From positions 1 through 64,000 of IMG/VR virus record IMGVR_UViG_2974656882_000001: DNA of 64,000 nt. The stretch is one strand, 5' to 3'. The notes below the pieces were generated by a model. It was given only the letters and a program-made list of their open reading frames with translations, had not been told where the DNA came from and did not search any database. Position 1 is the first letter of the stretch. Each line of letters begins with the position of its first letter. Positions 428 through 25,782 of the stretch are shown piece by piece. Origin of the DNA: a virus. Lineage: Duplodnaviria > Heunggongvirae > Uroviricota > Caudoviricetes > Straboviridae. A program made the position numbers and the translations under genes.

Positions 428-741
428 GAGTATATAAATCCATTGAAGAGTTTGATGAAATTCAAGGTTGTCAAACAACATTATTTACTATAGGCGAAAT
501 TGATGAAAAGTTCCACCTTTCATGGATGCCTAATGTCCTTGAAGCCATCACATTGCCTCGCTATTCAGGATATTTTAATACATTTGACATGTGTCGTAAA
601 AATGCAGAAACCGTGCTCAATGCACGCTGCTCCAGCCAATCAGATATTAATACAGTCATACAGTTAATGAATGAATCTGTTCGCAAAGAATTGGAAATAA
701 ATCGTTTATTATTTCAATGTTTTAGGGAGATAGGCCTATGA
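424..741 (+). CDS. hypothetical protein (105 aa)
   Basis: ATGA-coupled ORF chain. Confidence 0.4.
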   Translation: MRVYKSIEEFDEIQGCQTTLFTIGEIDEKFHLSWMPNVLEAITLPRYSGYFNTFDMCRKNAETVLNARCSSQSDINTVIQLMNESVRKELEINRLLFQCFREIGL

Positions 742-935
742 ATATTTTTAATCAAATTCGTATTGCTAATGAGAATGCAGAAAATTTTTCTGAAGCTGCT
801 GCATTATGGTATCGGGTTGTTGTAGGTGTAGGTATATGCATTCCATTGTTGTTTATTGTTGGGTTCATTACCGGTGCATTGATGTTCAAGAATCCTCTAG
901 CTGCGGGTTCTGAGCTTGTCAACGCAATGTTCTAA
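738..935 (+). CDS. small hydrophobic protein (65 aa)
   Basis: ATGA-coupled; predicted TM segment (VVGVGICIPLLFIVGFITGALMF). Confidence 0.35.
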   Translation: MNIFNQIRIANENAENFSEAAALWYRVVVGVGICIPLLFIVGFITGALMFKNPLAAGSELVNAMF

Positions 936-2238: not shown

Positions 2239-2448
2239 ATGGCTATTTTAGATTGGCTTAACCCACCTGAATCAAAGGTAGAACTTCTTCCTGGTGCACA
2301 AGAGCTATGGAAATCAATTGTTGTTGCTGGTACTTCTAATGGCAAATTGTTCGGATCTTCTCCTGAAGAAAATGCAAAATATCTTGCAAGCTTGGCAACA
2401 GAGCTGGTTAAAGAATATTCAACTATCTTTAAGGGCTCTCTACAATGA
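2239..2448 (+). CDS. hypothetical protein (69 aa; start moved to the ATG after the hairpin, SD GGAG)
   Basis: the track ORF's upstream start lies inside the hairpin; internal ATG has an RBS. Confidence 0.4.
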   Translation: MAILDWLNPPESKVELLPGAQELWKSIVVAGTSNGKLFGSSPEENAKYLASLATELVKEYSTIFKGSLQ

Positions 2449-2744
2449 ATTCACTAATGTGTAACCATGACTTTGATTTTAACTCGCAATTATTGAGTTC
2501 TCCGCCTAAGGTTCGTTGCCGAAAATGTAGAATTACAGCTACACTTGATGATGCTACTGAATATAAAGCATTCAGTACACCTATGAGCCCTATAACAGAG
2601 CTAGAAAAGAAAGAATTTTGGAAGGCATGCGCACTAGCGTATCTACCAAATAGTACGATTATCAGCGGCCAAACCGGTATTACATCATCTGTTTCAGCAA
2701 TTGCAGATAATATGGTCGAACATTTTGTAAAACGTTTCGGATAA
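2445..2744 (+). CDS. hypothetical Cys-rich protein (99 aa)
   Basis: ATGA overlap; CxxH...CxxC pattern. Confidence 0.4.
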   Translation: MNSLMCNHDFDFNSQLLSSPPKVRCRKCRITATLDDATEYKAFSTPMSPITELEKKEFWKACALAYLPNSTIISGQTGITSSVSAIADNMVEHFVKRFG

Positions 2745-2747
2745 TTA

Positions 2748-2788
2748 CCACAAAAGGCTAAAGTTTTATTTTACTTTAGCCTTTTGTG
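2748..2788 (+). terminator. long perfect stem-loop (17-bp stem ccacaaaaggctaaagt / actttagccttttgtgg) fused to a downstream TATAAT: PeSL-type terminator/promoter cassette
   Basis: inverted repeat read directly; a TATAAT hexamer lies immediately 3' of the stem (~2793-2798). Confidence 0.6.
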
Positions 2789-2836
2789 GTGTTATAATAG
2801 CACTATCAAATAAATTATCCTTAATGAGGAAATCGA

Positions 2837-3145
2837 ATGAAAATTACTTATCAACCGCATGCTTTAGAAATTACTCTCATTAAAGGCGAAGAACGTGAAT
2901 CGGCTTCAGTAGCTATTCCATCATGGGCAACATGTGTAGCTGTTGATCGTAATGGTGTAATTAGTGTTTTTGATGAATATCCAAATCGTTGCAGCGAAGA
3001 CTGGGATAGCCTGCTCGGCTCAACATATGAAATTGTTGCAGAAGTCCAAGACGTTGTACGAAATTGGGAAAACACTTGTCATCCTATTGACCAATCATTT
3101 AATACTAAAACTGAATTAATTTTACTAGTGGGAGAAGAGCCATGA
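2837..3145 (+). CDS. hypothetical protein (102 aa)
   Basis: SD GAGGAAA 6 nt upstream. Confidence 0.45.
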   Translation: MKITYQPHALEITLIKGEERESASVAIPSWATCVAVDRNGVISVFDEYPNRCSEDWDSLLGSTYEIVAEVQDVVRNWENTCHPIDQSFNTKTELILLVGEEP

Positions 3146-3435
3146 GCTTACTCTTTGGAAGCGTCATAGCAATATTTTTATCTTTGTTCCCTATCGTGAT
3201 GGCTGCGTATTACAAGAGCTCTACTGCAATTATGGTAGCGGTAGTTGTCCTAAATTTATTAGGATTCTTTACAATGGGCGTTACAACTTTTATTGCATTT
3301 GTTGTTGCAGCAATCTCTATTGGCGTAATGAACACCATTAAATCTATTGCATTTGCGTTATTCTTACTTGCAGTAGTAGCAGTTGCCGGAGTTGCGGACC
3401 TTGCGCTTATTGCAAATATTGTTGGAGCAATTTAA
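3142..3435 (+). CDS. small polytopic inner-membrane protein (97 aa, ~4 TM); Imm-like by position (T4 imm lies between 43 and 42)
   Basis: hydrophobicity only; synteny argument. Confidence 0.4.
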   Translation: MSLLFGSVIAIFLSLFPIVMAAYYKSSTAIMVAVVVLNLLGFFTMGVTTFIAFVVAAISIGVMNTIKSIAFALFLLAVVAVAGVADLALIANIVGAI

Positions 3436-3788
3436 TGAAGAATTTATTTTTAATTCTAAGCATATCGTTTCTATCATCCGTTAATGCTGCAGTGCCAGGA
3501 TGTTATAAATGGGATACCAAATGTATAGAAAAAGAATATGCACGTCAACAAGCATTAGATGAAGAGATTCGTGACCATCGTCGCCTTATGCAACAACACA
3601 TCGATGTGGCTGTTGAATCTGAACGCCCTGTGATGGAACAACTACGAAACAAACCGCAAATTTCACCAGAAGTTATCGCAGTTCAGATTTGTCGCCAAAT
3701 GGCAATCGATGAGACTGTTTTCCGGTTTGGCTATCTTAATTCAAAACACTATCGTACATTATTAGATACATGCATGGGAGTCAAATAA
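3435..3788 (+). CDS. secreted/periplasmic protein with N-terminal signal peptide (117 aa)
   Basis: MKNLFLILSISFLSSVNA-AVPG signal-peptide-like N-terminus. Confidence 0.45.
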   Translation: MKNLFLILSISFLSSVNAAVPGCYKWDTKCIEKEYARQQALDEEIRDHRRLMQQHIDVAVESERPVMEQLRNKPQISPEVIAVQICRQMAIDETVFRFGYLNSKHYRTLLDTCMGVK

Positions 3789-3789
3789 A

Positions 3790-4242
3790 ATGACTGAAGC
3801 AGAAGTTTCAAAATTAAAACAGGTACATGAATTTGAAGTTAATCATTTGGCACATGCAAACATGGCTTGGCAACGTAAGTATGAAGAAGCCACCGAGCTT
3901 CCTAAATATGACATCAACAAGTTGCCTGAAGGCCGAATGCATATTGTACCTGAACGTATTGTTTGTGCTGCAAACCAGTACACAGATCACAATGGAAACA
4001 AAGTTGTAATTGCAGGTGTTCGCCATGCATGTTATGTGATGTATTCGTCATTTGTTGGACACAATAGCGGTGAAACAATTCTATATCGTGAAACAGAAGT
4101 ACAAGGCTTCTTAACAAATAAACATCGATTTGTCGATCGCCAAGAAGCTTGGAAAATTGCAGCAGAGCAACAACAAATTGTTTGTCGTGTAGGTGGTGAT
4201 ACATCTAAAGGCGGAACTCTTTATTCGGAGAACTTGTACTAA
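3790..4242 (+). CDS. hypothetical protein (150 aa)
   Basis: ORF in operon context. Confidence 0.45.
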   Translation: MTEAEVSKLKQVHEFEVNHLAHANMAWQRKYEEATELPKYDINKLPEGRMHIVPERIVCAANQYTDHNGNKVVIAGVRHACYVMYSSFVGHNSGETILYRETEVQGFLTNKHRFVDRQEAWKIAAEQQQIVCRVGGDTSKGGTLYSENLY

Positions 4243-4562
4243 TGGAAATCGATGAAGATTATATTGACGTTGATTTTATCAATGAGCAAATCAATGATAA
4301 ACATCACAAAATCCTTTCACTATGCATATCATTGAGTAAAAAGGGCATTGATGCATTCTATTCATATTCACCTCATGTAGATTGGGCTGATGTTAGAGTT
4401 TATACTAGTGGATGGACACAAGACAATGACCCTGATTTAATATTTAGCTTCTTGTGGTCTGACATCACTCGAGACGGGCCTGTAGATTCAGAAACTGTAA
4501 GCATAGTGATGTCCAAATTTGATAAATGTATTTTTGCATTAGAAGGTCTTTTAAATGATTGA
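4242..4562 (+). CDS. hypothetical protein (106 aa)
   Basis: ATGA-coupled. Confidence 0.4.
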   Translation: MEIDEDYIDVDFINEQINDKHHKILSLCISLSKKGIDAFYSYSPHVDWADVRVYTSGWTQDNDPDLIFSFLWSDITRDGPVDSETVSIVMSKFDKCIFALEGLLND

Positions 4563-4875
4563 TTTCAAAGAACTGCTGAAAAAGACACCGCGTTTCACTA
4601 ATGTTGAAGAAGTTGCACCTATTATTGAAGCAATGGAAACTCTCTTGGCACGAGATATCACGGAACGCCCAGACTCAGATTCATGGCAACGATCACATAG
4701 CGCTACTTCAATGACGGAATCAGCACTCAAGGAAATGTATGAATTCATTTCTAGAGAATATGTTGCGACGGGACGCACCCAAATGCAAGTTGGATTTGAG
4801 TCTGAACAAGAAATCGGACGTGATTGGTTCCCGGCTAAAATAACTTTTACCGTTAGCAGATCTATGCTAACCTAA
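4555..4875 (+). CDS. hypothetical protein (106 aa)
   Basis: overlapping start. Confidence 0.4.
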   Translation: MIDFKELLKKTPRFTNVEEVAPIIEAMETLLARDITERPDSDSWQRSHSATSMTESALKEMYEFISREYVATGRTQMQVGFESEQEIGRDWFPAKITFTVSRSMLT

Positions 4876-4918
4876 TAATGGTGATATAATAGGTCCATCA
4901 ACAAACAATGAGGTAATT

Positions 4919-5551
4919 ATGGATAACATCGATTTAGCATTAAAAGTAGTTGAAGATCAAAATGATGCATTAGATTATCTTCATACTGCTATCGCAGTAA
5001 ATGGCGACAAATATTCAAACATGATTGATATTCTAAAAGTAGTTGCAGCATCAAACTACCGACAACGCATCATGATTACTGGCGTAGGTAAAAATTCAAA
5101 TCTTGCAACTAAAGCGTCTGAAACATTTGCAAGCCTTGGCATCCCATCCATGTATTTGAACACATGTCATTATTCTCATGGCGATGCAGGATTTATCGGA
5201 CATGATGACGTAGTTATCCATGTTTCGCGTTCTGGTAAAACAGAAGAAATGCAATATATGGCACGTCATTTGAAGACTATTCGTCCTAATGTTCTTCAAA
5301 TCTTGTTGCACTGCAATAGCCAATTAACTGAAGAGCAAAAGGCGCCATTTGACATCGAATTTGGTATTCCAGGCATTGTCGAATGCGATGATAATCATCT
5401 TGCACCCACAACAAGTACAACAGTGCTATTGGTTTTATTAGATACTATTGGTGTAATTTTGTCTAAACATCTTAGATTCACACGTGAAAATTTTTATTCA
5501 TACCATCCAGGTGGTTCACTTGGAGCAATGCTCAAATCTGAATCAAAATAA
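4919..5551 (+). CDS. SIS-domain sugar-phosphate isomerase (KdsD/GutQ/GmhA-like; predicted arabinose-5-phosphate isomerase type)
   Basis: ITGVGKNSNLATKASETFASLGIPS ... HGDAGFIGHDDVVIHVSRSGKTEE = SIS fold signature; own promoter ...ggtgaTATAATagg upstream. Confidence 0.75.
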   Translation: MDNIDLALKVVEDQNDALDYLHTAIAVNGDKYSNMIDILKVVAASNYRQRIMITGVGKNSNLATKASETFASLGIPSMYLNTCHYSHGDAGFIGHDDVVIHVSRSGKTEEMQYMARHLKTIRPNVLQILLHCNSQLTEEQKAPFDIEFGIPGIVECDDNHLAPTTSTTVLLVLLDTIGVILSKHLRFTRENFYSYHPGGSLGAMLKSESK

Positions 5552-5591
5552 TTTACTTTACATAAGAACTATGATATAATTGTCATAGTTC
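5551..5591 (+). promoter_or_regulatory. early promoter ATTTAC-N18-TATAAT with the -10 inside a hairpin loop (gaactatga / tcatagttc): PeSL-like
   Basis: read directly; coordinates approximate. Confidence 0.55.
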
Positions 5592-5610
5592 TTTCTTAGG
5601 AATAAACAAT

Positions 5611-7284
5611 ATGAAAAAAGTCGTAATTTTAGGTGCAGGTCTTGCAACTCGCCTATATCCAATCACCCATCATATTCCTAAAGTCTTAGTGAATTATAAG
5701 CAACACACAATTTTGCATCATTTATATTCATTGTACACTAGACTTGGTGCTGAACAAATTATTGTGGCTGTTCATAGCAAGTTTGCTTCACAAGTTAAAG
5801 AATACGCAAAGTTGTTCGGACTTGACATTGTTGTCGAAACTGTCGATGAAGCATATGGTTCAGCTTATGCAATTTCTAGATTAGCAGATCATGTCAACGG
5901 TCACAACGTTGTTTTTAACTGGTGTGATGTCATCCCGGATTTTGATGCATTTCGATGGGATGCAAATGCAATCTATACCTTTGGTGATGAATGTCGATAT
6001 AGCTACAATGGCAAAACTTTGAAAGAACACATTGTTGGTACAGGTGGTAACGTTGTAGGCATATACCAATATCGTGATTTCTTTATTTCACGTATCAATG
6101 ACAAAGATGAAGCTAATGAGTTCTTCAAAGGGCGTGATTTTGTTGAATTAATTGACACGACAAATGAAGCGTTTTATCAAGATTATTTGCTTAATTTAGT
6201 TGACTTAGGGGACAAGCCTAAGCTTGAAATTGCACATCGTAATCGTGAACTTAATCGTGAATTCAACCAAGTGACTATGGCCTCAGGTGTTGTTTATAAA
6301 GCGGCAATCAATGAAAAAGGACGTCAATTGCAAAAAGAAGAACTTGCATGGTATGCAAAGGTTGATAGCCCTGCATTGCCAAAAATTCTTGATCGTCGTG
6401 AAACTGACAAAATAATGTCATTCAAAATGGAACGTATCATCGGCAAACCGATGTTTGAAGTGTATACGCCAGAATTATTGCCGAAAATTCTCGAGACTCT
6501 CAAATTTGATAAAATGCCAGAGTTTACATCTCGTGAACAGATCATCAATGATTATCAATATGAGGTCATTGACAAAGTCATGAGCCGTTGTGATGAAATT
6601 AAAGGAGTCATTAAATCATTTGGCGACATCGAATATGTCAATAATGTCAAAATCGGACGTTTAGAAACAATGTTGAAGCAAGCATTTGCACATTTAACAT
6701 ATGAAGCAAACGATAAAGATTATTATGTTATTCATGGCGACCCGAACTTCAGTAATATAATGCTTGATCAAAACGGTGATGTTCGTTTAATTGATCCACG
6801 TGGATATTTTGGCAAAACAAAAATCTATGGGCCGCGAATTTATGATGAAGCTAAAGTGCTTTATGCGCTGACGGGTTATGATAAATTTAATTCAGATCAT
6901 ATGTGGGGTGGATTAGCCATCAACGGTAATGCTGCAACGATCAATATCGAGCCATTAAGCGTAACATCTCTTCATAGTAAATATTTTAATGAATACCATC
7001 ATCTCTGGGTTGCAGTGATTTGGATTGCTCTTGCAGGATATTTCAAAAATAATCCATTGAAATCCGTTAGTGCATTCTACTACGGTATGTATTTGTTAAC
7101 GACTGCTCTTGATAAAATGGGACGTCGTTTGAAAGATGGATCAGTGGCTCATGATTCAGGATTAGTTCATGCAGTACTATCTACAAAAAATCCAGACAAA
7201 TGGCTATTAACTGATCTTGAAACAGGTGAAAAATATCGCCCTTCGAAATTTATTGGTGATATGCACTGGGAGAAAATTCAATGA
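5611..7284 (+). CDS. bifunctional sugar-1-phosphate nucleotidyltransferase (RmlA/GlmU/LicC-like N-terminus) fused to an APH/choline-kinase-like sugar kinase (C-terminus)
   Basis: N-terminus VVILGAGLATRLYPITHHIPKVLV (GxGTRL NTase motif); C-terminus HGDPNFSNIMLD...DVRLIDPRG (Brenner HxDxxxxN kinase motif plus DFG-like ID). Same architecture class as AmgK/MurU and LicA/LicC pairs. Confidence 0.75.
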   Translation: MKKVVILGAGLATRLYPITHHIPKVLVNYKQHTILHHLYSLYTRLGAEQIIVAVHSKFASQVKEYAKLFGLDIVVETVDEAYGSAYAISRLADHVNGHNVVFNWCDVIPDFDAFRWDANAIYTFGDECRYSYNGKTLKEHIVGTGGNVVGIYQYRDFFISRINDKDEANEFFKGRDFVELIDTTNEAFYQDYLLNLVDLGDKPKLEIAHRNRELNREFNQVTMASGVVYKAAINEKGRQLQKEELAWYAKVDSPALPKILDRRETDKIMSFKMERIIGKPMFEVYTPELLPKILETLKFDKMPEFTSREQIINDYQYEVIDKVMSRCDEIKGVIKSFGDIEYVNNVKIGRLETMLKQAFAHLTYEANDKDYYVIHGDPNFSNIMLDQNGDVRLIDPRGYFGKTKIYGPRIYDEAKVLYALTGYDKFNSDHMWGGLAINGNAATINIEPLSVTSLHSKYFNEYHHLWVAVIWIALAGYFKNNPLKSVSAFYYGMYLLTTALDKMGRRLKDGSVAHDSGLVHAVLSTKNPDKWLLTDLETGEKYRPSKFIGDMHWEKIQ

Positions 7285-7661
7285 TTCGTCCAAAACAATT
7301 TTGCTTTGATGTCGATAATACCATCACTCTTTGGGATGATAGTCGTGACTATGAAAATTTCAAACCTGATCTTGAAATGGTATCAATGATCAATGAGTTA
7401 TATGATCAAGGGCATCATATAACTCTATTCACAGCTCGAGGCATGACATCAGTAGGTTCAGATGCAATAAGCCGTGCTATTGTGCCTGCACTAGTTAAAA
7501 ATCTTGAAAAGATTAAATTGAAATATCATCAACTGCTCACACATAAACCAGTGTATGATTGGATCATTGATGATAAGGCGTTGAACCCTAAAGAATTCAA
7601 AGATGCTTTTCGTAACAATGAATTATTATCTAAACAACCATATGTCCCAGAGGTGAATTGA
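7281..7661 (+). CDS. HAD-superfamily phosphatase (KdsC-like small sugar-phosphate phosphatase)
   Basis: FCFDVDNTITLW = DxDxT motif I; ATGA-coupled to the flanking genes. Confidence 0.65.
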   Translation: MIRPKQFCFDVDNTITLWDDSRDYENFKPDLEMVSMINELYDQGHHITLFTARGMTSVGSDAISRAIVPALVKNLEKIKLKYHQLLTHKPVYDWIIDDKALNPKEFKDAFRNNELLSKQPYVPEVN

Positions 7662-8365
7662 TGACAAAGTATATTTTAGCTAGCACATTTGAAGAAGCAT
7701 TCAAACGCCTCAATTATCTAGTGATTACTGAACCTGAATTTGTCACGGATTCTCGTATCGGCAAATGTCGTGAAATCGGATCAATTCTTTTAGAGGTAGC
7801 ACTTCCGGATACTGGCGCAATTTTCAAAGATAAAAATATTAATCGTATCGATTATGGTTACGCAGAAAAATTCTGGGAATTCATGATCCAAGGTGGCACA
7901 GATGCGGAACAAGTGTTTAAGGACTATCCAAATGTCGCGAAATTTATTGCGAAACCGAAAACGGATGCTTTACCTGCAAATTTCAATACCTTCTATGGGC
8001 CACGAATTGTTTCACAGTTACCAGCCCTTATCAAAGAACTTAAAGAAAAACCGAACTCACGACGTGTAGTTTTTCAAATTCTTCAAGAACAAGATCAAGT
8101 GCTTTTAGATGCAGATGAATCGTTAGAATATCCATGTACAGATTCTGTTACCTTTTATATTCGTGAAGGACGTTTGTACATGCATACACATATGCGAAGC
8201 CAAAACTGTGCAGTAGTTATGCAGCTCGATTTTTATTTGATGCACCGATTCATGGAATATATCGCAAAAGAATGCAATGTTGAATTTGGCACTTATGCAC
8301 ATTCTATTGTTTCTGCTCATGTATTTGAACGTGATTTGGATTACGTTAAGAACTTTTTAGGATAA
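7661..8365 (+). CDS. 42: dCMP hydroxymethylase (thymidylate-synthase fold)
   Basis: NSRRVVFQIL...YPCTDSVTFYIREGRLYMHTHMRSQNCAVV aligns with T4 gp42 DSRRGIMIY...FMCTNTVQYLIRDKKINAVVNMRSNDVV (catalytic Cys region). The track start is a TTG; the true ATG is at 7661, overlapping the upstream stop. Confidence 0.8.
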   Translation: MTKYILASTFEEAFKRLNYLVITEPEFVTDSRIGKCREIGSILLEVALPDTGAIFKDKNINRIDYGYAEKFWEFMIQGGTDAEQVFKDYPNVAKFIAKPKTDALPANFNTFYGPRIVSQLPALIKELKEKPNSRRVVFQILQEQDQVLLDADESLEYPCTDSVTFYIREGRLYMHTHMRSQNCAVVMQLDFYLMHRFMEYIAKECNVEFGTYAHSIVSAHVFERDLDYVKNFLG

Positions 8366-8370
8366 ATGAT

Positions 8371-9315
8371 ATGGCTAGAATGATTGTACCAATTTTTTCG
8401 ATGCGATCATATGAAACTAGAAAGTATGCCGTTCTTAAAGACGGCAACTTCCAGTTGCATCTACATCGAGCTCAACCTGGTGACCTGATTGCCGTGCCAT
8501 TTAATATATCTGACATGGGTGATTTAACATATTTGTTTCCGGATTTTAAATTCGTTCAATTTCAGTATGGCTTTAATGCAGATGAAACTCGTCAATGGTT
8601 CTGGGATTGGAATCAATCTAATGTTGACGAAATAATGCGTGTATATAATTTAGATACACTTATAACCGACATTTCTGGATATAATGGCGTTCATAATTTT
8701 ATTTTTAATGCAAATATATCTAAAGTTTCTTCAATGCCACGTTTGTATATTGACAAATATTGGGACAAAGATTTAGAGACTGCTAAATCTGCAATACGAG
8801 TATTTGTTCTAAATCATTCTCAAAAGGATGAATTTGTCGCTAATGGCATTTCTGCAGATAAAATTGTTGTATCGCAAAAGGTTGTCAATCCTAGCGTTAT
8901 TGAGCGATATACTAAGCGCATTGATCATGATGAAATTCAGCCTCTAGGTTCTAATGTGGTATTTTTCCCGTTTAGAATTTCTGACCCATGTTACGATTTT
9001 ATGGGCGTTGCCAAGACATGTGCTGAAACTGGAAATATGTTAGTCATTACTGATCCTAACGATACCTTTATTGACAAAAAATCTATGCTCAAAAGGATGT
9101 ACCCAAATCTAGAGATCATGGAGTGCAAATTAGATAAAGTTTCATATTATATTGTACTTTCGCAGCATCCAACAATTATCTACAACGAAAATCCAGATAA
9201 TGTGTTTCATCCTGGCCTAGGCGAATTGATTTATTTCGATGCTAACATTATTAGTGATTATAATATACCATCAATTGATGATATTTTAATTACAGGTGAT
9301 GTATGGCAAAACTAA
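8371..9315 (+). CDS. putative DNA-sugar transferase (314 aa) occupying the beta-glucosyltransferase position after gene 42
   Basis: synteny only (T4 order 42, beta-gt); no strong motif recognised. Confidence 0.3.
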   Translation: MARMIVPIFSMRSYETRKYAVLKDGNFQLHLHRAQPGDLIAVPFNISDMGDLTYLFPDFKFVQFQYGFNADETRQWFWDWNQSNVDEIMRVYNLDTLITDISGYNGVHNFIFNANISKVSSMPRLYIDKYWDKDLETAKSAIRVFVLNHSQKDEFVANGISADKIVVSQKVVNPSVIERYTKRIDHDEIQPLGSNVVFFPFRISDPCYDFMGVAKTCAETGNMLVITDPNDTFIDKKSMLKRMYPNLEIMECKLDKVSYYIVLSQHPTIIYNENPDNVFHPGLGELIYFDANIISDYNIPSIDDILITGDVWQN

Positions 9316-9845
9316 TCTTAGTTGAAGGTCCTGATAACGCTGGCAAAACTACATTAATTTCAAATTTAGAACGATTTACTCCTGCAGTTTTGATGCCATT
9401 TCCTAAACGCACAAGTGAAGGTCGCTTCACTTGTGTAACTCGCAACGAAGTTGCAATATTTGAAACGATGTTAAGATACATCGATGACGACACAACGTAT
9501 ATTCTTGATCGTGGTGGTTTAAGTAATATTGTATATGAAGGTGTACTTCGTGGTAAACCAACTCAAATTTTCAAAGATGACTTCAAAAGATTCATCAAAC
9601 AAAATGATGTTTTAGTAGTTGGTCTTACTCGTAACAAACTTAATGACAACTTTGCAGATGATTTGATTTCAATTAGTGAAGAACAATTTAATGCGATTGT
9701 TGACGAGTTTGAAGATGTGTATAATGAATTTGGAATAACTCCTTATCGAATCCTTGACCATGATGTGTACAACAACATCAATGATATTGTTCCATTTGAA
9801 AAAGTAATGGAAGACTTAAAAATTGAAGAATTTATTGGACCTTAA
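9303..9845 (+). CDS. P-loop kinase-like protein (180 aa), possible (d)NMP or sugar kinase
   Basis: Walker A LVEGPDNAGKTTLISN at the N-terminus. Confidence 0.45.
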   Translation: MAKLILVEGPDNAGKTTLISNLERFTPAVLMPFPKRTSEGRFTCVTRNEVAIFETMLRYIDDDTTYILDRGGLSNIVYEGVLRGKPTQIFKDDFKRFIKQNDVLVVGLTRNKLNDNFADDLISISEEQFNAIVDEFEDVYNEFGITPYRILDHDVYNNINDIVPFEKVMEDLKIEEFIGP

Positions 9846-9846
9846 T

Positions 9847-10968
9847 ATGAAAATTTTATACTTACCTTGTCGTTCTGTGCCATTTAACATTAACCGTGTT
9901 GATGGTGGCCTTGAAGCAGTTCAATATAATTTTATTGTGAATTTATCTAAAGTTCATGATATCGATTATGTTGCATTTGGAGATGAAGAATTTGGTGATG
10001 TTAAAGTCAACACATTATCAATTGATAAACCTATTGGTGCCAAGTTTACTACTGCTCATGCATACAAAATCAAATATAAACTTCAGGAAATTACAGACTG
10101 GGACCAGTATGATGCCATTGTAATTATCGAAGGTAGCAAAATGGTACTTAACACCCTTGCAGAATTAGGACAGATTTCTAAAGTTCGAAATATTCTTGCA
10201 ACACCACTCGATCCATCAGTACGTGGAATTGTACAATGCTGGAACAACGCAGTAATGGTCCATAAATTAGGTGGTAAAAATATTGTCCCAACTCAAACCT
10301 TTAAAGACTTAGCTGCAAATGTTTATTCAAAAATGAATGAACGAATTGCTGCAGAAGTTATTGATTTTGATTACTGGCAAGCTAATGATATTATTGCGGA
10401 TGAATTTTATCCACCTATTCTTATTAGCGAACGCCCAACAGTTCTTGAATCTGAAGGACACATTGTTCAAGCCCAACGATTTGATAATACGTTTAGAAAA
10501 TCAAACGTTGCATTCGGTGCAATGGAATTATACGATGGCCCTAAGATTGCCTTTTGTCCTTCTAAATGGGCTCCGGGTAAGAAATGGCTCAAACAAGACC
10601 ATTGGGTAATTATTGATGCAAAACGTCAAGCTGTTCAAACTGAAATTTCGACAGCAAAACTTCTTGTTAATACTTGTCACAACACTGGCACAGTAGAGAA
10701 TGGCTCACTTGAGGCAATCTCACAAGGCACGCCAGTACTTCAACTAATTCAAAAAGGATACAACCATGCTACATTTGAGTACGACCCTAATACTGTTCGA
10801 GTTGAATTTGAAGAAGGCGCAAGCACTCAAGAACTAATCGAGTTATATGCCAAGGCATTAAATGATTTTGAAGATACATATGAGCAACGAGTTGCAAGAG
10901 CAGAATATCTTTATAAGAAATTTAATGAAGAAGCGTACTTTAAGCTCTGGGAAGCTGTTTTAAAATAA
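9847..10968 (+). CDS. GT-B fold glycosyltransferase (GT4-like); paralog of 11028-12146
   Basis: N-terminus MKILYLPC...GGLE; C-terminus TGTVENGSLEAISQGTPVL (E-X7-E-like GT-B motif); ~45% identity to the next ORF along the whole length; start moved to the internal ATG that matches the paralog. Confidence 0.55.
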   Translation: MKILYLPCRSVPFNINRVDGGLEAVQYNFIVNLSKVHDIDYVAFGDEEFGDVKVNTLSIDKPIGAKFTTAHAYKIKYKLQEITDWDQYDAIVIIEGSKMVLNTLAELGQISKVRNILATPLDPSVRGIVQCWNNAVMVHKLGGKNIVPTQTFKDLAANVYSKMNERIAAEVIDFDYWQANDIIADEFYPPILISERPTVLESEGHIVQAQRFDNTFRKSNVAFGAMELYDGPKIAFCPSKWAPGKKWLKQDHWVIIDAKRQAVQTEISTAKLLVNTCHNTGTVENGSLEAISQGTPVLQLIQKGYNHATFEYDPNTVRVEFEEGASTQELIELYAKALNDFEDTYEQRVARAEYLYKKFNEEAYFKLWEAVLK

Positions 10969-10978
10969 TTCTGAAAAT

Positions 10979-10994
10979 GGAGCCTTCGGGCTCC
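10979..10994 (+). promoter_or_regulatory. UUCG-tetraloop hairpin (ggagcc-ttcg-ggctcc)
   Basis: perfect 6-bp stem with UUCG loop between the paralogous GT genes. Confidence 0.6.
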
Positions 10995-11027
10995 ATAAAT
11001 ACTACTACACTTTCTTTGAGATGAAAC

Positions 11028-12146
11028 ATGAAAATCTTATACATTCCATGTCGATTTATTACTTTTAATGCCAACTATATTTCAGGTGGCCTTGAATCGG
11101 TCCAATTGAACTTTATCAAAACGATGAGCAAGAAGCATCAAATTGATTATATTGCATTTGGCGATGAAACATTTGGACCTTACAAAGTAAACCCAATCTC
11201 TATTGACTATCCGATTGTTGACAAATATACGGTAAAACATGGCAAAAAGATCATTGAAAAAATTGCAGAACTTGATTGCTCCCAATACGATGCTATCGTA
11301 ACTGTAGAGGCAGCAAAAGGTGTTATCAATGGTTTAATTAAACTAGGGCTTGGACCAAAGATTCGAAATTTATTGGCTACTCCACTTGACCCTACAATTC
11401 GCACACTTGTTTCTATTTGGCGCACTGCGGTATTCATTCACCAGAATGGCGGTAAAAATTTAGTTCCTACTCAAACCTTTAAAGATTTGACATCTAAAGT
11501 TTATTCAAAAATGAACAGACGTTTAGCGGTAGGTGCCATTGATTTTGATTATTGGGCTAAGAATGACATCATCTCTGATAATTTCTTTCCAGCTACGTTA
11601 ATCGAGAATCCGCCAGAAGTTTTGCCATCAAAGGGATATGTAGTACAAGCTCAACGGTATGACTTAAAATTTAGAAAGACAAATGTAGCATTAGAAGCAA
11701 TGAAACATTGTCCACATAAAATTATTGCATTCTTGCCAAGACAGTGGGCACCTCCAAAGAAATATCTTAAAGAGCCTTTTGTGCATATGGATATACCTCG
11801 TAAAGCAATCCAAGATACAATTAAAGAAGCACTAGTTCTTGTAAATACTTGTCATGATACCGGTACTATTGAACATGGCTCAATGGAAGCGATTGAAAAG
11901 GGTGTTCCAGTATTACAACTTATTCAACGAGGCTATAGTCATGCCACGTTAGAACATGATCCAACTACACAAGTTGTATGGATCGATGATGGTATGACAA
12001 CTGAGGAAATTATTGCAGCTTATTCTGATGCGTTAAATAATTTCACCGATACATTTGAACAACGAGTAAATCGTGCAAATGCATTATACGAACAATACCG
12101 CCCTGAACGTGTATTTGCACTATGGGAAAAGGCACTTCTGGAGTAA
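11028..12146 (+). CDS. GT-B fold glycosyltransferase, tandem paralog
   Basis: MKILYIPC...GGLE; TGTIEHGSMEAIEKGVPVL. Confidence 0.55.
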   Translation: MKILYIPCRFITFNANYISGGLESVQLNFIKTMSKKHQIDYIAFGDETFGPYKVNPISIDYPIVDKYTVKHGKKIIEKIAELDCSQYDAIVTVEAAKGVINGLIKLGLGPKIRNLLATPLDPTIRTLVSIWRTAVFIHQNGGKNLVPTQTFKDLTSKVYSKMNRRLAVGAIDFDYWAKNDIISDNFFPATLIENPPEVLPSKGYVVQAQRYDLKFRKTNVALEAMKHCPHKIIAFLPRQWAPPKKYLKEPFVHMDIPRKAIQDTIKEALVLVNTCHDTGTIEHGSMEAIEKGVPVLQLIQRGYSHATLEHDPTTQVVWIDDGMTTEEIIAAYSDALNNFTDTFEQRVNRANALYEQYRPERVFALWEKALLE

Positions 12147-12148
12147 AT

Positions 12149-12460
12149 ATGTCCACTAACGATGAAGATCTTAATACAGCTAATGACAGCAGAGGCCCAT
12201 CCGGAGCACTATACGAAAAGTCTTTAGGTATCATTAGAGAGGCAATGAAAGATGTCAAACAAGAAATCTTGATTAAGCTTGAAGACGGATCAGACCATAT
12301 TGTGTATATCCATGATATTACAATAAATGCTAATAGTGTTTCATATGATTTTTCTACGCCAAGCGAAGACAGAAAGGATGAATTAACAAAGCATGTAGAG
12401 TATATCATTCAATTGCAAATGGCTGACATTAAAAGTAAAAAGAAAATGTTTACATATTAA
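12149..12460 (+). CDS. hypothetical protein (103 aa)
   Basis: SD GGAG then ATG immediately after the GT stop. Confidence 0.4.
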   Translation: MSTNDEDLNTANDSRGPSGALYEKSLGIIREAMKDVKQEILIKLEDGSDHIVYIHDITINANSVSYDFSTPSEDRKDELTKHVEYIIQLQMADIKSKKKMFTY

Positions 12461-12465
12461 GCAAT

Positions 12466-12479
12466 GGTCCTTCGGGACC
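12466..12479 (+). promoter_or_regulatory. UUCG hairpin (ggtcc-ttcg-ggacc) followed by TGGTATATAAT (-10-like) upstream of gene 41
   Basis: read directly. Confidence 0.55.
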
Positions 12480-12520
12480 ATCTTGGTATATAATTATTCT
12501 AATTGAATAAGGGTGACTAT

Positions 12521-14017
12521 ATGATAGACGTTATTTTAGGCCAATTGATTTCTAATCAAGAATATTTTGGCAGAGTATGGCCATACCTCAAAGAAGACTA
12601 TTTTGAGAAAGGTCCTGCACGAATTCTTTATAATTCAATTAAGTCTCATGTTGACGCATACAATGGAATCCCATCAAAGGTCGCATTAGATTTAGTTGTA
12701 AACAACTCAAATTTAAATGAAGTTGATTTTAAAGGCGTGTCAACACTTTTAGGAAATCTTAAAACTGAACCTGAATCTGTAGATTGGCTTGTCCCAGAAA
12801 CTGAAAAATACGTGCAACGACGTGCAATGTACAATGCAACTGTAAAAATTGTACAAATTCAGACGAATGCAGATAAACCATTAAATCAACGAGACAAGCG
12901 TTTGCCTGATGTCGGTGCTATTCCGGATATCATGCGAGATGCATTATCAGTTTGTTTCGATTCTTCTATCGGGCATTCATGGATGGAAGACTATGAAGCT
13001 CGATGGTTGTCTTACCAAAATAAAACACGTAAAATCCCGTTTAAGCTCAATATGCTAAATAAAATTACAAAGGGTGGTGTAGAAATTGGCACATTGAATA
13101 TTATTTTAGCTGGTGTAAACGTTGGTAAATCTTTAGGATTGTGTTCGCTTACTGCAGACTATTTACAATCTGGTAAAAATGTTTTGTACATCTCAATGGA
13201 GATGGCAGAAGAAGTTGTGGCAAAGCGTATTGATGCAAACTTACTTGATGTCACAATGGATGACATTGACGATGGTAAAATCAGTTACCCTGAATACAAA
13301 TCTAAGATGGAACGTTGGAGAAAGGCAAATGTTCTTGGAGAGTTGTACATCAAACAATATCCTATTGGAGGTGCTCATGCATTAACATTCAAGGCGTTAT
13401 TAAACGAATTGAAGTTGAAGAAAGCCTTCAAGCCTGATATTATTGTTGTAGATTATCTTGGCATCTGTGCATCATCTCGAATTAAAGTGTTTAGTGAAAA
13501 CTCATACACACTTGTTAAAGCTATTGCAGAAGAACTTCGAGCACTGGCTGTTGAAGAACGAGTACCTATTTGGACCGCAGCTCAGACCACTCGTGGTGGC
13601 TGGGATAACTCTGATATCACTATGAGTGATATCGCAGAATCTGCCGGCCTAAGTCATACTGCCGACTTTATCTTGGCTGCGATCGAAACCGAAGATTTAG
13701 CTACCCAAGGCGTCCAGTTAATGAAACAAATTAAATCACGTTATGGGGATAAGTCAATATTCAATAAATTTAATTTGTGTGTCAAGAAAGGTAATCAACG
13801 CTGGTATGAAGAAGATGGTCCTAGTGCACCAGTTATTCCAGAATCTCAAATGACCGACGAGATAATTATCAAAGCATGTGTTGCCGCTAAAGAAACTATT
13901 CCTGTTACTGAAGAATCTATTCAATTGTCAAATATCGAAGAGATGAATAAAGTACATCGTATTTCAAGTGCATCTCGAGCGGAATTAGATGATCTTGCAG
14001 CAAAACTAACCTTTTAA
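12521..14017 (+). CDS. 41: replicative DNA helicase (DnaB-like primase-helicase)
   Basis: Near-colinear identity to T4 gp41 (e.g. GVNVGKSLGLCSLTADYLQSGKNVLYISMEMAEEV; IAEELRALAVEERVPIWTAAQ). Start set at MIDVILGQL to match T4 MVEIILSHL. Confidence 0.92.
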   Translation: MIDVILGQLISNQEYFGRVWPYLKEDYFEKGPARILYNSIKSHVDAYNGIPSKVALDLVVNNSNLNEVDFKGVSTLLGNLKTEPESVDWLVPETEKYVQRRAMYNATVKIVQIQTNADKPLNQRDKRLPDVGAIPDIMRDALSVCFDSSIGHSWMEDYEARWLSYQNKTRKIPFKLNMLNKITKGGVEIGTLNIILAGVNVGKSLGLCSLTADYLQSGKNVLYISMEMAEEVVAKRIDANLLDVTMDDIDDGKISYPEYKSKMERWRKANVLGELYIKQYPIGGAHALTFKALLNELKLKKAFKPDIIVVDYLGICASSRIKVFSENSYTLVKAIAEELRALAVEERVPIWTAAQTTRGGWDNSDITMSDIAESAGLSHTADFILAAIETEDLATQGVQLMKQIKSRYGDKSIFNKFNLCVKKGNQRWYEEDGPSAPVIPESQMTDEIIIKACVAAKETIPVTEESIQLSNIEEMNKVHRISSASRAELDDLAAKLTF

Positions 14018-15454: not shown

Positions 15455-15631
15455 ATGAAAGCTAAAGACATTGAATCAGTTATTGAAGCAAGAAAATCAA
15501 TAAAACGAGTTGTTGCTTCTATTCGAGACGATTTGAATGCTAGTAAGACTGATGTCCAAATCTCGTTTGAACTTAATCAAATGCAACTTCGCATCAAACA
15601 ACTTATGAACAGTTTAGGTAAACTACAATGA
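15455..15631 (+). CDS. small hypothetical protein (58 aa)
   Basis: SD GAGGAAA; stop overlaps next ATG; below the 60-aa ORF-track cutoff. Confidence 0.3.
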   Translation: MKAKDIESVIEARKSIKRVVASIRDDLNASKTDVQISFELNQMQLRIKQLMNSLGKLQ

Positions 15632-25263: not shown

Positions 25264-25782
25264 ATGGCACATTTCAATCAATGCTCGCAGTTAGTTGATG
25301 GTATCGATGCAGCTCGTCAAGTTGCAGAAGATTTACGGTTTAATGGCGAACAATATCTCGATTCAATGCTCGATATGCAAAAAGGTTTACAAACAAAATT
25401 GGCAATCGAAAAGCCAGAAATGAATTTGAATCCAAATGAAATCGATACTGCAGGTAAAACGGTTGATTGGCTTCGTACTCAATGGGATTGCATGAGCGAT
25501 GAATTCCGCGAATTGCTTACTTCTCTTGGTGGTATGTCAAATGGCGAAAAAGATGCATCAGGTGTTTGGAAAGCATGGAAAGCAAATAACCTTGAAAAAC
25601 GTGCAACTCTTATCAAAGATTTGAGTCCTGAAGATCAACTCGAAATCAAATTCGAATTAATTGATATGTGGCATTTCTTCTTGAATATGAACGTTGCACT
25701 TGGACTTCGCTCTGAAGAGATCTTCGAGTTGTATTACTTGAAAAACAAAGAAAACTTTGATCGCCAGAACAATGGCTATTAA
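25264..25782 (+). CDS. 56: dCTPase/dUTPase (MazG-like all-alpha NTP pyrophosphatase)
   Basis: MAHFNQCSQLVDGID...DEFRELLTSLGGMSNGEKDASGVWKAWKA...SPEDQLEIKFELIDMWHFFLNM...EEIFELYYLKNKENFDRQNNGY is near-identical in pattern to T4 gp56. Confidence 0.85.
   Translation: MAHFNQCSQLVDGIDAARQVAEDLRFNGEQYLDSMLDMQKGLQTKLAIEKPEMNLNPNEIDTAGKTVDWLRTQWDCMSDEFRELLTSLGGMSNGEKDASGVWKAWKANNLEKRATLIKDLSPEDQLEIKFELIDMWHFFLNMNVALGLRSEEIFELYYLKNKENFDRQNNGY

What the first reader, a model, noticed from the sequence alone, without database searches (positions are those of the whole stretch)
4919..12146. DNA hypermodification module: predicted NDP-pentose synthesis pathway, dCMP hydroxymethylase and three glycosyltransferases where T4 has beta-gt/uvsX/40
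Between 43B and 41 the canonical T4 genes (imm, 42, beta-gt, uvsX, 40) are replaced by a compact module. It holds a SIS-domain sugar-phosphate isomerase, an NTP-transferase/APH-kinase fusion and a HAD phosphatase. Together these give the enzyme logic ketose-5-P, aldose-5-P, free sugar, sugar-1-P, NDP-sugar, i.e. a self-contained nucleotide-sugar pathway of the D-arabinose type. These are followed by dCMP hydroxymethylase, a protein in the beta-gt slot, a P-loop kinase and two tandem, ~45% identical GT-B glycosyltransferases. This implies hmC DNA decorated with a phage-synthesised sugar, possibly in several iterative steps (three transferases). It is reminiscent of arabinosyl-hmC in RB69-type phages but carries its own donor-synthesis genes and a duplicated transferase. 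Such modifications determine resistance to restriction and CRISPR systems.
Basis: partly seen in the sequence, partly recalled or inferred. Interest (0 to 1): 0.75.

Follow-up and report, generated by a model that had tools for sequence, protein, structure and literature searches.

The report
Known phage arabinosyl-5-hydroxycytosine DNA modification cluster

Summary
The window is Acinetobacter phage AbTZA1 (100% identity). The eight ORFs at 4919-12146 are real. They are colinear, gene for gene, with DLP3 gp83-gp76 (71-92% aa identity) and Maestro 084-077 (88-99.8%). DLP3 DNA was shown by LC-MS/NMR to carry tri-arabinofuranosyl-5-hydroxycytosine, and Maestro is reported to carry arabinosylated 5hoC.

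Four points are wrong:
- The thymidylate-synthase homolog (7661-8365) carries L143E, D169N and N177D. This is the published signature of flavin-dependent 5-hydroxy-dCMP synthases, whereas T4 gp42 keeps D169. The sugar therefore sits on 5hoC through an ether bond, not on hmC.
- The published route is Ara5P, then Ara-1,5-P2, then Ara1P, then UDP-Araf. There is no free sugar.
- Gene 40 is not replaced; it lies at 12149-12460.
- RB69 carries the same donor-synthesis genes. The tandem transferases are 56% identical, not about 45%.

Still open:
- AbTZA1 DNA itself has not been analysed.
- The P-loop kinase has no assigned role.
- The first transferase is a mosaic patch relative to Maestro.
- No uvsX is detectable.

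Verdict: already known, low interest.

The parts
4919..5551 (+). SIS-only arabinose-5-phosphate isomerase (Ru5P to Ara5P); ortholog of DLP3 gp83 and RB69 gp55
   Evidence: Pfam SIS 6e-6. PHROG 5670 'arabinose 5-phosphate isomerase' 3e-101. NCBIfam KpsF/GutQ 1.6e-29, below the curated cutoff. 80% identical to DLP3 gp83, 99.5% to Maestro 084, 56% to RB69 p055.
5552..5610 (+). 59-nt spacer with a 13-bp hairpin and a promoter-like TTTACT-17-TATAAT
   Evidence: RNA fold -16.1 kcal/mol. Promoter-like site at 5552-5580, but the number of promoter-like sites in the region is not above shuffled expectation. Maestro annotates a terminator at the equivalent place.
5611..7284 (+). Bifunctional enzyme: N-terminal sugar-1-P nucleotidyltransferase and C-terminal APH/choline-kinase-like kinase. 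AfhE-like: Ara5P to Ara-1,5-P2, then Ara1P to UDP-Araf
   Evidence: Pfam NTP_transferase 7e-9 (residues 3-100) and APH 0.006 (350-395). GAGLATRL at the N-terminus and HGDPNFSN at residue 375. 74% identical to DLP3 gp82; 59% and 51% to RB69 p053 and p052. The closest PDB match by sequence covers only the NTase domain (LicC 1jyk, 7.8e-5). Function is taken from HY126 AfhE as reported in PMC13326640.
7281..7661 (+). Small HAD-family phosphatase (AfhF-like: Ara-1,5-P2 to Ara1P)
   Evidence: DVDNT motif at residue 10. NCBIfam EcbF-BcbF capsule phosphatase 9e-11. PDB 9iqw 5e-45 and 1xpj 1e-9. 82% identical to DLP3 gp81, 60% to RB69 p051.
7661..8365 (+). Thymidylate-synthase-family 5-hydroxy-dCMP synthase, not a dCMP hydroxymethylase
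   Evidence: In E. coli ThyA numbering it has C146, L143E, D169N and N177D, identical to DLP3 gp80 and RB69 gp48. T4 gp42 has D169. 87% identical to DLP3 gp80, 71% to RB69 gp48, 22% to T4 gp42. PDB 9iqu/9iqc/9ir2 at 1.6e-109. All 20 full-length relatives fetched from viral contigs carry E143/N169/D177.
8371..9315 (+). GT1: GT-B fold glycosyltransferase in the beta-gt slot; predicted first (alpha) arabinosyltransferase acting on 5hoC
   Evidence: No Pfam, NCBIfam or PDB sequence hit. AF2 model pLDDT 94.7, pTM 0.91. Foldseek against the PDB finds MshA 3c4q (2.7e-7, TM 0.62) and UDP-GlcNAc 2-epimerases. 71% identical to DLP3 gp79, 48% and 46% to RB69 p047 and p046. Unrelated in sequence to GT2.
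9303..9845 (+). P-loop thymidylate-kinase-like nucleotide kinase; role not established
   Evidence: Pfam AAA_28 1.2e-4. PHROG 761 'thymidylate kinase' 2e-30. GPDNAGKT motif. 73% identical to DLP3 gp78, 43% to RB69 p045. Present in every full-length related locus.
9847..10968 (+). GT2: gp3-type GT4-like glycosyltransferase (beta-arabinosyltransferase 2/3); ortholog of DLP3 gp77
   Evidence: 92% identical to DLP3 gp77. 43% to RB69 gp3. PDB 9iqz/9ir0 'Glycosyltransferase subfamily 4-like' 1.8e-95. PHROG 8302 2e-179.
10969..11027 (+). 59-nt spacer with an 8-bp GC-rich hairpin closed by a UUCG loop
   Evidence: GGAGCCTTCGGGCTCC, -15.5 kcal/mol.
11028..12146 (+). GT3: paralog of GT2 (56% identical); ortholog of DLP3 gp76 (beta-arabinosyltransferase 2/3)
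   Evidence: 84% identical to DLP3 gp76 and 56% to GT2. 41% to RB69 gp3. PDB 9iqz 7.4e-88.
25264..25782 (+). gp56-like dCTPase/dUTPase, an accessory gene outside the finding; would deplete dCTP so that C is fully replaced
   Evidence: PHROG 173 nucleoside triphosphate pyrophosphohydrolase 1.8e-36. Pfam dUTPase_2 3e-5. Role inferred from DLP3_051 and RB69p028 in PMC13326640.

Best explanation
The module is the arabinosyl-5-hydroxycytosine DNA hypermodification cluster of T4-like phages.

Sugar branch. The SIS isomerase converts host ribulose-5-P to D-arabinose-5-P. The kinase domain of the 557-aa fusion protein phosphorylates C1 to give arabinofuranose-1,5-bisphosphate. The small HAD phosphatase removes the 5-phosphate. 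The nucleotidyltransferase domain of the same fusion protein then makes UDP-arabinofuranose.

Base branch. The thymidylate-synthase homolog, a flavin- and O2-dependent enzyme rather than a folate one-carbon transferase, hydroxylates dCMP to 5-hydroxy-dCMP. This is phosphorylated by the gp1-type dNMP kinase encoded elsewhere in the genome, and possibly by the P-loop kinase in the module. It is then incorporated at replication while a gp56-like dCTPase removes dCTP.

Transfer. GT1 attaches the first alpha-arabinofuranose to the 5-OH through an ether-type O-glycosidic bond. The gp3-type paralogs GT2 and GT3 together extend it with beta-linked arabinofuranoses. The predicted product is the same trisaccharide as in DLP3: beta-D-Araf-(1-5)-beta-D-Araf-(1-3)-alpha-D-Araf-5hodC.

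Shown here: orthology, synteny, catalytic motifs, the D169N signature and the GT-B fold of GT1. Shown in the literature for orthologs: the chemistry, 5hodCMP synthesis, and the need for gp76 plus gp77 for the third arabinose. Inferred: that AbTZA1 DNA carries the same product, the assignment of GT1 to the first step, and the role of the P-loop kinase.
For: - Identity and synteny. The window is 100% identical to AbTZA1. The module is 95.5% identical in nucleotides to Maestro and about 78% to DLP1/2/3. It is colinear gene for gene with DLP3 gp83-gp76 and Maestro 084-077, with protein identities of 71-92% and 88-99.8%.
- TS signature. L143E, D169N, N177D and C146 are shared with DLP3 gp80 and RB69 gp48 and differ from T4 gp42. 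The signature is present in all 20 full-length relatives.
- Solved structures of close homologs exist for the TS homolog (9iqu/9iqc/9ir2, 1e-109), the HAD enzyme (9iqw, 5e-45) and the gp3-type transferase (9iqz/9ir0, 1e-95 and 7e-88).
- The GT1 model has a GT-B fold.
- Catalytic motifs are intact in the kinase, HAD and P-loop proteins.
- A separate, ordinary td thymidylate synthase and frd lie elsewhere in the genome, so this TS homolog is not the phage's dTMP synthase.
- A dCTPase-like gene and a DenB-like gene lie in the window.
- Literature. DLP3 DNA contains mono-, di- and tri-Araf-5hodC by MS/MS and NMR. gp80 and gp48 make 5hodC in vivo with 18O from O2. gp76 plus gp77 with UDP-Araf add the third arabinose. 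HY126 AfhE and AfhF define the sugar steps. Maestro is listed among phages containing arabinosylated 5hodC (PMC13326640).
Against: - No chemical data exist for AbTZA1 itself.
- GT1 is only 71% identical to DLP3 gp79 and 88% to Maestro 080. It lies in a mosaic patch where nucleotide identity to Maestro falls to 77%, so its acceptor or linkage specificity could differ.
- In the published in-vitro work, no single DLP3 transferase arabinosylated 5hoC-DNA. The first step, and whether it occurs on DNA or on the nucleotide, is therefore unproven (PMC13326640 section 26).
- The two primary papers on Maestro and HY126 (Mahler 2025; He 2026) are not in the library. I rely on how PMC13326640 reports them.
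- The role of the P-loop kinase is unassigned.
Confidence: 0.9

Rival explanations
1. The TS homolog is a T4 gp42-type dCMP hydroxymethylase, and the sugar chain is attached to 5-hydroxymethylcytosine (arabinosyl-hmC). The donor is made through free arabinose: Ara5P, then arabinose, then Ara1P, then NDP-Ara.
For: The protein belongs to the thymidylate-synthase family and keeps the catalytic Cys, N177D and an acidic residue at position 143, as gp42 does. It sits in the gene-42 slot. Several GenBank records annotate it as dCMP hydroxymethylase. RB69 was originally reported as ara-hmC (PMC6024577).
Against: It has D169N, whereas T4 gp42 keeps D169, and this position is the published discriminator. 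It is 22% identical to gp42 but 87% and 71% identical to enzymes shown to make 5hodC with oxygen from O2 (PMC13326640). The RB69 assignment has been corrected to 5hoC (PMC13326640; PMC13390438). PMC13326640 reports that the HY126 ortholog of the kinase phosphorylates Ara5P, not free arabinose.
Confidence: 0.04
2. The pathway is the 5hoC-arabinose one, but AbTZA1 makes a different glycan from DLP3. For example, it stops at two arabinoses because GT2 and GT3 are partly redundant, or the divergent GT1 allele gives a different first linkage.
For: GT1 is the least conserved protein of the module: 71% identical to DLP3 and 88% to Maestro, against 99% or more for most of its neighbours. A mosaic patch lies at 8519-9118. 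DLP3 DNA itself contains a mixture of mono-, di- and tri-arabinosyl forms (PMC13326640).
Against: GT2 and GT3 are 92% and 84% identical to DLP3 gp77 and gp76, which together add the third arabinose in vitro (PMC13326640). Both paralogs are kept intact in all five Acinetobacter-phage-type loci examined.
Confidence: 0.12
3. The sugar genes are an auxiliary metabolic cassette that acts on the host surface (capsule, Kdo or LPS precursors) rather than on DNA, as annotations such as 'capsular polysaccharide biosynthesis protein' and 'capsule biosynthesis phosphatase' suggest.
For: The nearest bacterial families are KpsF/GutQ, the EcbF-BcbF capsule phosphatase and sugar-1-P nucleotidyltransferases. 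The RefSeq product names say the same.
Against: All these matches fall far below the curated family cutoffs. The genes are translationally packed with the TS homolog and the DNA transferases, and they co-occur with them in all 20 full-length related phage loci. Orthologs are shown or inferred to feed DNA arabinosylation (PMC13326640).
Confidence: 0.01

Closest known systems
Acinetobacter phage DLP3 cluster gp76-gp83 (Lee et al., NAR 2026, PMC13326640): tri-arabinofuranosyl-5-hydroxycytosine
   Same: It has the same eight genes in the same order and orientation between the DNA polymerase and gp40/gp41. Identities are 71-92% aa. It shares the TS signature and the tandem gp3-type transferase pair.
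   Different: It belongs to a different genus (Lazarusvirus, against Hadassahvirus for AbTZA1), with about 78% nucleotide identity. GT1 is the most diverged protein, at 71%. AbTZA1 DNA has not been analysed chemically.
Acinetobacter phage Maestro (same genus, Hadassahvirus), listed in PMC13326640, citing Mahler et al. 2025, as containing arabinosylated 5hodC
   Same: The module is 95.5% identical in nucleotides. Six of the eight proteins are 98.7-99.8% identical.
   Different: A patch covering GT1 and the P-loop kinase (8519-9718) falls to 77-83% nucleotide identity, giving 88% and 94% aa identity. I could not read the primary paper.
Escherichia phage RB69 gp45-gp55 plus gp3: di-arabinosyl-5hoC, first reported as ara-hmC (PMC6024577) and later corrected (PMC13326640)
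   Same: It has homologs of the isomerase, NT/kinase, HAD, TS, GT1 and P-loop kinase at 43-71% identity, in the same order next to gene 43. Its gp3 is homologous to GT2 and GT3 at 43% and 41%.
   Different: RB69 has one gp3-type transferase, located near rIIA, rather than a tandem pair in the cluster. It keeps uvsX between the kinase and gene 40, and it has an extra U32-peptidase-like gene (p050) that is absent here. Its DNA carries two arabinoses rather than three.
Phage T4 glucosyl-hmC system (gp42, alpha-gt, beta-gt)
   Same: The genomic slot is the same, between genes 43 and 41. The logic is the same: a TS-family enzyme makes a C5-oxygenated dCMP, dCTP is depleted, and GT-B transferases add sugar.
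   Different: The enzyme here is a hydroxylase with D169N rather than a hydroxymethylase. The sugar is arabinofuranose from a phage-made donor, not host UDP-glucose. No alpha-gt or beta-gt homolog is present.

Membership tests
Phage arabinosyl-5-hydroxycytosine cluster (DLP3 gp76-83, RB69 gp45-55, HY126 Afh) | TS-family 5hodCMP synthase with D169N plus N177D and L143E (E. coli ThyA numbering) and the catalytic Cys146 | tested here: met
   The alignment with E. coli ThyA, T4 gp42, DLP3 gp80 and RB69 gp48 shows E143, C146, N169 and D177. PDB 9iqu/9iqc match at 1e-109.
Phage arabinosyl-5-hydroxycytosine cluster | Arabinose-5-phosphate isomerase (SIS domain) in the cluster | tested here: met
   PHROG 5670 at 3e-101. 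80% identical to DLP3 gp83 and 56% to RB69 p055.
Phage arabinosyl-5-hydroxycytosine cluster | Bifunctional NTase/kinase (AfhE-like) plus small HAD phosphatase (AfhF-like) | tested here: met
   74% and 82% identical to DLP3 gp82 and gp81. Motifs GAGLATRL, HGDPNFSN and DVDNT are present. PDB 9iqw matches at 5e-45. Enzyme activity was not tested.
Phage arabinosyl-5-hydroxycytosine cluster | GT-B transferase directly downstream of the TS homolog (first arabinosyltransferase) | tested here: met
   AF2 model pLDDT 94.7. Foldseek hits MshA 3c4q and other GT-B proteins. 71% identical to DLP3 gp79.
Phage arabinosyl-5-hydroxycytosine cluster | gp3-type (GT4-like) extending arabinosyltransferase(s) | tested here: met
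   There are two copies. They are 92% and 84% identical to DLP3 gp77 and gp76, and 43% and 41% to RB69 gp3. PDB 9iqz matches both.
Phage arabinosyl-5-hydroxycytosine cluster | Virion DNA in which dC is replaced by arabinosylated 5hodC | not testable with these tools
   This needs LC-MS/MS and NMR of AbTZA1 DNA. It is known only for DLP3, RB69 and, by citation, Maestro (PMC13326640).
T4-type glucosyl-hmC system | dCMP hydroxymethylase that keeps Asp at ThyA position 169 (T4 D179) | tested here: not met
   The window protein has Asn at position 169 and is 22% identical to gp42 over 147 residues.
T4-type glucosyl-hmC system | alpha-gt or beta-gt homolog | tested here: not met
   tblastn with T4 beta-gt finds nothing in the 64-kb window at E<=0.01. 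alpha-gt was not searched directly.
KdsD/GutQ arabinose-5-phosphate isomerase (NCBIfam equivalogs) | Full-length SIS plus tandem CBS architecture scoring above the curated cutoff | tested here: not met
   The protein is 210 aa and SIS-only. It scores 92 bits against a cutoff of 505 for KdsD, and 103 against 204 for KpsF. It works like an API but is not an equivalog.
   There is only a weak NTase-domain resemblance to LicC 1jyk (7.8e-5, residues 3-93). No NCBIfam choline family was hit. PMC13326640 reports that the HY126 ortholog acts on arabinose phosphates.

The most novel reading that the evidence does not exclude
The AbTZA1 lineage carries a recombinant allele of the first transferase and the adjacent P-loop kinase: 77-83% nucleotide identity to Maestro inside a module that is otherwise 99% identical. 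This allele may change the first linkage or the acceptor, so that closely related Hadassahviruses display chemically different DNA glycans. That would be a diversification hotspot driven by modification-dependent host defences. Separately, the conserved P-loop kinase may be a dedicated 5hodCMP kinase or another undescribed step of the pathway.
Probability: 0.12. Interest if true: 0.45.

Novelty: already known. Interest (0 to 1): 0.15.

Why it matters
Arabosylated 5-hydroxycytosine DNA blocks many type II restriction enzymes. According to the papers cited, it also changes sensitivity to CRISPR-Cas, DNA glycosylases and type IV systems such as GmrSD/BrxU. AbTZA1-like phages are candidates for therapy against A. 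baumannii, so knowing that their DNA is almost certainly tri-arabinosylated 5hoC matters for three practical reasons: host-range prediction, phage engineering (Cas cleavage, cloning, sequencing) and immunological considerations.

For the scan itself, the useful lesson concerns annotation. A 'dCMP hydroxymethylase' or 'thymidylate synthase' label in such clusters should be checked at ThyA position 169. Database product names here, such as 'phosphoheptose isomerase', 'capsular polysaccharide biosynthesis protein' and 'DNA alpha-glucosyltransferase', are misleading.

Tried and rejected
- Pfam and NCBIfam give no hit for any of the three transferases. A PDB sequence search for GT1 gives only noise. 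GT1 therefore needed a structure prediction.
- The promoter and terminator scan is not above shuffled expectation: 41 promoter-like sites against 38.2 expected, and 2 terminator-like sites against 4.7. There is no T4 late-promoter TATAAATA in 4300-12700, and the single MotA-box-like match lies inside a gene. No statement about timing of expression is made.
- The primary papers of Mahler et al. 2025 and He et al. 2026 are not held. Their results are used only as reported by PMC13326640.
- The search for uvsX gave nothing significant: tblastn with T4 and RB69 UvsX at E up to 10, over the window plus 100 kb of the rest of the genome, and Pfam/PHROG scans of mid-size hypothetical proteins.
- The eight small ORFs between 43B and the isomerase (2239-4875) have no Pfam domain, and six of them scanned against PHROGs match at most unknown-function families. 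They are not assigned to the module. No imm homolog was found.
- The capsule or LPS auxiliary-gene reading and the choline-pathway reading were considered and rejected (see rival explanations and membership test).
- One short metagenomic contig (L029, 52% TS identity) did not give a clean motif read-out with my regular expression. It was left out of the 20/20 count.

Full report
**Identity of the sequence.** A megablast of 4919-12146 against GenBank phages finds Acinetobacter phage AbTZA1 (MK278860 / NC_049445) at 100% identity, at the same coordinates. The window is therefore the first 64 kb of that genome. The same 7.2 kb is 99.1% identical in AB-Navy71 and 95.5% in Maestro and Morttis. It is about 78% identical in the Lazarusvirus group, which includes DLP1, DLP2 and DLP3. 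In all, 71 records match, 57 from Acinetobacter phages and 11 from Escherichia phages.

**The observation.** The eight ORFs exist as described and coincide with RefSeq genes gp013-gp020.
- Pfam finds a SIS domain in the first ORF.
- It finds NTP_transferase (residues 3-100) and a weak APH kinase match (350-395) in the 557-aa protein.
- It finds Thymidylat_synt in the fourth ORF and a weak P-loop match in the sixth.
- It finds nothing for the three putative transferases or the 126-aa protein.
- PHROGs and NCBIfam add 'arabinose 5-phosphate isomerase' (3e-101), an HAD/capsule-phosphatase family for the 126-aa protein, and a thymidylate-kinase-like family. They also place the two tandem ORFs in a single family of unknown function.
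- Catalytic motifs are intact: GAGLATRL and HGDPNFSN in the fusion protein, DVDNT in the HAD protein, and GPDNAGKT in the kinase.
- NT/kinase, HAD, TS, GT1, NK and GT2 overlap or are separated by at most 5 nt. Two 59-nt spacers with stable hairpins set off the isomerase and the last transferase.

**Errors in the description of the surroundings.**
- Gene 40 is present at 12149-12460 (Pfam Phage_head_chap 3.6e-22; 46% identical to T4 gp40).
- The gene-42 position still holds a TS-family gene.
- The tandem paralogs are 56% identical, not about 45%.
- T4 beta-gt, imm and UvsX do lack homologs in the window.
- The polymerase is split, with 43A at record 165973-167481 and 43B at 1035-2207.

**What the module is.** It is colinear, gene for gene, with DLP3 gp83 to gp76 and with Maestro 084 to 077. 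Identities to DLP3 are:

| Protein | Identity to DLP3 |
|---|---|
| Isomerase | 80% |
| NT/kinase | 74% |
| HAD | 82% |
| TS homolog | 87% |
| GT1 | 71% |
| P-loop kinase | 73% |
| GT2 | 92% |
| GT3 | 84% |

Identities to Maestro are 88-99.8%, and to the RB69 homologs 43-71%.

Lee et al. (NAR 2026, PMC13326640) analysed DLP3 and RB69 virion DNA by LC-MS/MS and NMR. They found that dC is completely replaced by arabinosylated 5-hydroxy-2'-deoxycytidine. In DLP3 the chain reaches beta-D-Araf-(1-5)-beta-D-Araf-(1-3)-alpha-D-Araf linked by an ether oxygen directly to C5. In RB69 it reaches the disaccharide. They showed three further things:
- DLP3 gp80 and RB69 gp48, the TS homologs, make 5hodC in E. 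coli. Its oxygen comes from O2, and the enzymes bind a flavin.
- gp76 and gp77 together, with UDP-Araf, add the third arabinose to RB69 DNA.
- From He et al. 2026 they report the sugar steps in phage HY126. The bifunctional AfhE phosphorylates Ara5P to Ara-1,5-bisphosphate, the HAD enzyme AfhF removes the 5-phosphate, and AfhE then makes UDP-arabinose.

They list Maestro among phages containing arabinosylated 5hodC, citing Mahler et al. 2025.

**Test of the key point: hydroxymethyl or hydroxyl?** The paper states that D169N (E. coli ThyA numbering) predicts 5hodCMP synthases, while N177D and L143D/E are shared with hydroxymethylases. I aligned the window protein with E. coli ThyA, T4 gp42, Maestro 081, DLP3 gp80 and RB69 gp48.
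- The window protein has E143, C146, N169 and D177, identical to the two tested hydroxylases.
- T4 gp42 has D143, C146, D169 and D177.
- It is 22% identical to gp42 over 147 residues, against 87% and 71% to the hydroxylases.
- Its best PDB matches are three 2020s entries, 9iqu, 9iqc and 9ir2 (E about 1e-109), far above MilA and the classical thymidylate synthases.
- In 20 full-length relatives fetched from IMG/VR, all carry E143/N169/D177.
- A conventional td gene and frd lie elsewhere in the AbTZA1 genome.

The 'dCMP hydroxymethylase' reading therefore fails a defining test, and the hydroxylase reading passes it.

**The transferases.**
- GT1 has no detectable sequence similarity to anything annotated. 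It is also unrelated in sequence to GT2.
- I collected 86 homologs of GT1, all from T4-like phages or metagenomes, aligned 42 of them and predicted the structure. The model has mean pLDDT 94.7 and pTM 0.91, with two Rossmann-like halves.
- Foldseek against the PDB returns the retaining GT4 enzyme MshA (3c4q, 2.7e-7, TM 0.62), UDP-GlcNAc 2-epimerases and other GT-B proteins. This matches what Lee et al. report for DLP3 gp79 and RB69 gp46:47.
- GT2 and GT3 are 43% and 41% identical to RB69 gp3. Both match a solved 'glycosyltransferase subfamily 4-like' structure, 9iqz/9ir0, at 1.8e-95 and 7.4e-88.

**Comparative picture.** Across 21 IMG/VR loci plus DLP3, Maestro and RB69, the block NT/kinase, HAD, TS, GT1 and P-loop kinase is present in every full-length locus. 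The tandem gp3-type pair occurs only in the Acinetobacter-phage-type loci (L010, L011, L025, DLP3, Maestro). Those loci lack uvsX at this position, while all the others have uvsX there and no gp3-type gene within 8 kb. The published pattern is one transferase with one arabinose in Thanatos, two in RB69 and three in DLP3. This fits a prediction of tri-arabinosylation for AbTZA1.

RB69 has the same three donor-synthesis genes.

**Mechanism, and what is shown or inferred.**
- Shown here: orthology, synteny, motifs, the D169N signature and the GT-B fold.
- Shown in the literature for orthologs: the product structure, 5hodCMP synthesis, the requirement for UDP-Araf with gp76 plus gp77 for the third sugar, and the order Ara5P, Ara-1,5-P2, Ara1P, UDP-Araf.
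- Inferred: that AbTZA1 DNA carries the same trisaccharide, and that GT1 performs the first, alpha-linked transfer. No single DLP3 transferase worked on 5hoC-DNA in vitro.
- Also inferred: the gp56-like pyrophosphohydrolase at 25264-25782 and the gp1 dNMP kinase outside the window complete the nucleotide branch.
- Open: the P-loop kinase has no assigned function. Lee et al.'s table shows a nucleotide kinase next to the TS homolog and a transferase also in Rhizobium phage RL38J1, which uses hexoses. This argues for a nucleotide-related rather than an arabinose-related role, but that is inference.

**Comparison and novelty.** The locus is a member of a published, experimentally characterised system. 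A phage of the same genus is reported to have the modification. A phage of the sister genus with the same eight genes has a full chemical structure. I rate it 'already known'.

What is not in the literature I could read:
- direct chemistry for AbTZA1;
- the role of the P-loop kinase;
- the mosaic patch I found, where identity to Maestro is about 99% across the module but falls to 77% at 8519-9118 (GT1) and 83% at 9419-9718 (kinase), with a local GC dip.

**Verdict.** Interest is low (0.15), because specialists already know this system.

Noticed in passing
window 8519-9718 (GT1 and P-loop kinase), compared with L003 (Maestro): Nucleotide identity to Maestro is about 99% across the module. It drops to 77% at 8519-9118, 83% at 9419-9718 and 90% at 10019-10318, and GC dips to 0.33. 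This looks like a recombinant patch centred on the first arabinosyltransferase.
   Followed up: partly
whole window 1-64000, plus AbTZA1 record 64000-113900 (L009) and 118300-168223 (L008): tblastn finds no UvsX (RecA-like recombinase) homolog even at E<=10. Pfam and PHROG scans of mid-size hypothetical proteins find none either. Only record 113,901-118,299 was not examined. In related non-Acinetobacter loci, uvsX sits exactly where GT2 and GT3 sit here.
   Followed up: partly
window 1035-2207 and AbTZA1 record 165973-167481: The DNA polymerase gene 43 is split into 43A and 43B. Five small ORFs lie between the parts, at record 167542-168166 and window 113-935. Maestro annotates its polymerase as a two-piece join.
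   Followed up: no
window 5564-5593, 10977-10996 and 12464-12481: Stable intercistronic hairpins lie in the three roughly 60-nt spacers. Two are closed by UUCG tetraloops (GGAGCCTTCGGGCTCC and GGTCCTTCGGGACC). One has a TATAAT sequence in its loop. They resemble T4-type mRNA-stabilising or processing stem-loops.
   Followed up: no
window 2239-4875: Eight small ORFs (69-150 aa) lie between 43B and the isomerase. None has a Pfam domain, and six of them scanned against PHROGs match at most unknown-function families. They are conserved in DLP3 and Maestro and occupy the position of T4 imm and imm.1.
   Followed up: partly
window 15628-16611: A 327-aa protein is made of two recently defined domains of unknown function, DUF7277 and DUF7275 (Pfam 6.6e-13 and 4.8e-70). 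It lies just downstream of the helicase gene.
   Followed up: no
loci L014, L017-L021, L024, L027, L030 (IMG/VR relatives): Several related clusters have the NT/kinase, HAD, TS, GT1 and kinase genes but no isomerase within 8 kb, and the P-loop kinase lies upstream of the TS gene instead of downstream. These phages may rely on a host KdsD/GutQ or encode the isomerase elsewhere.
   Followed up: no
window 7281-7661, 5611-7284 and 9847-10968 (database annotations): Product names in public records are misleading for this module. Examples are 'phosphoheptose isomerase' for the HAD phosphatase, 'capsular polysaccharide biosynthesis protein' or 'UDP-glucose dehydrogenase' for the NT/kinase, and 'DNA alpha-glucosyltransferase' for GT2 and GT3.
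   Followed up: yes
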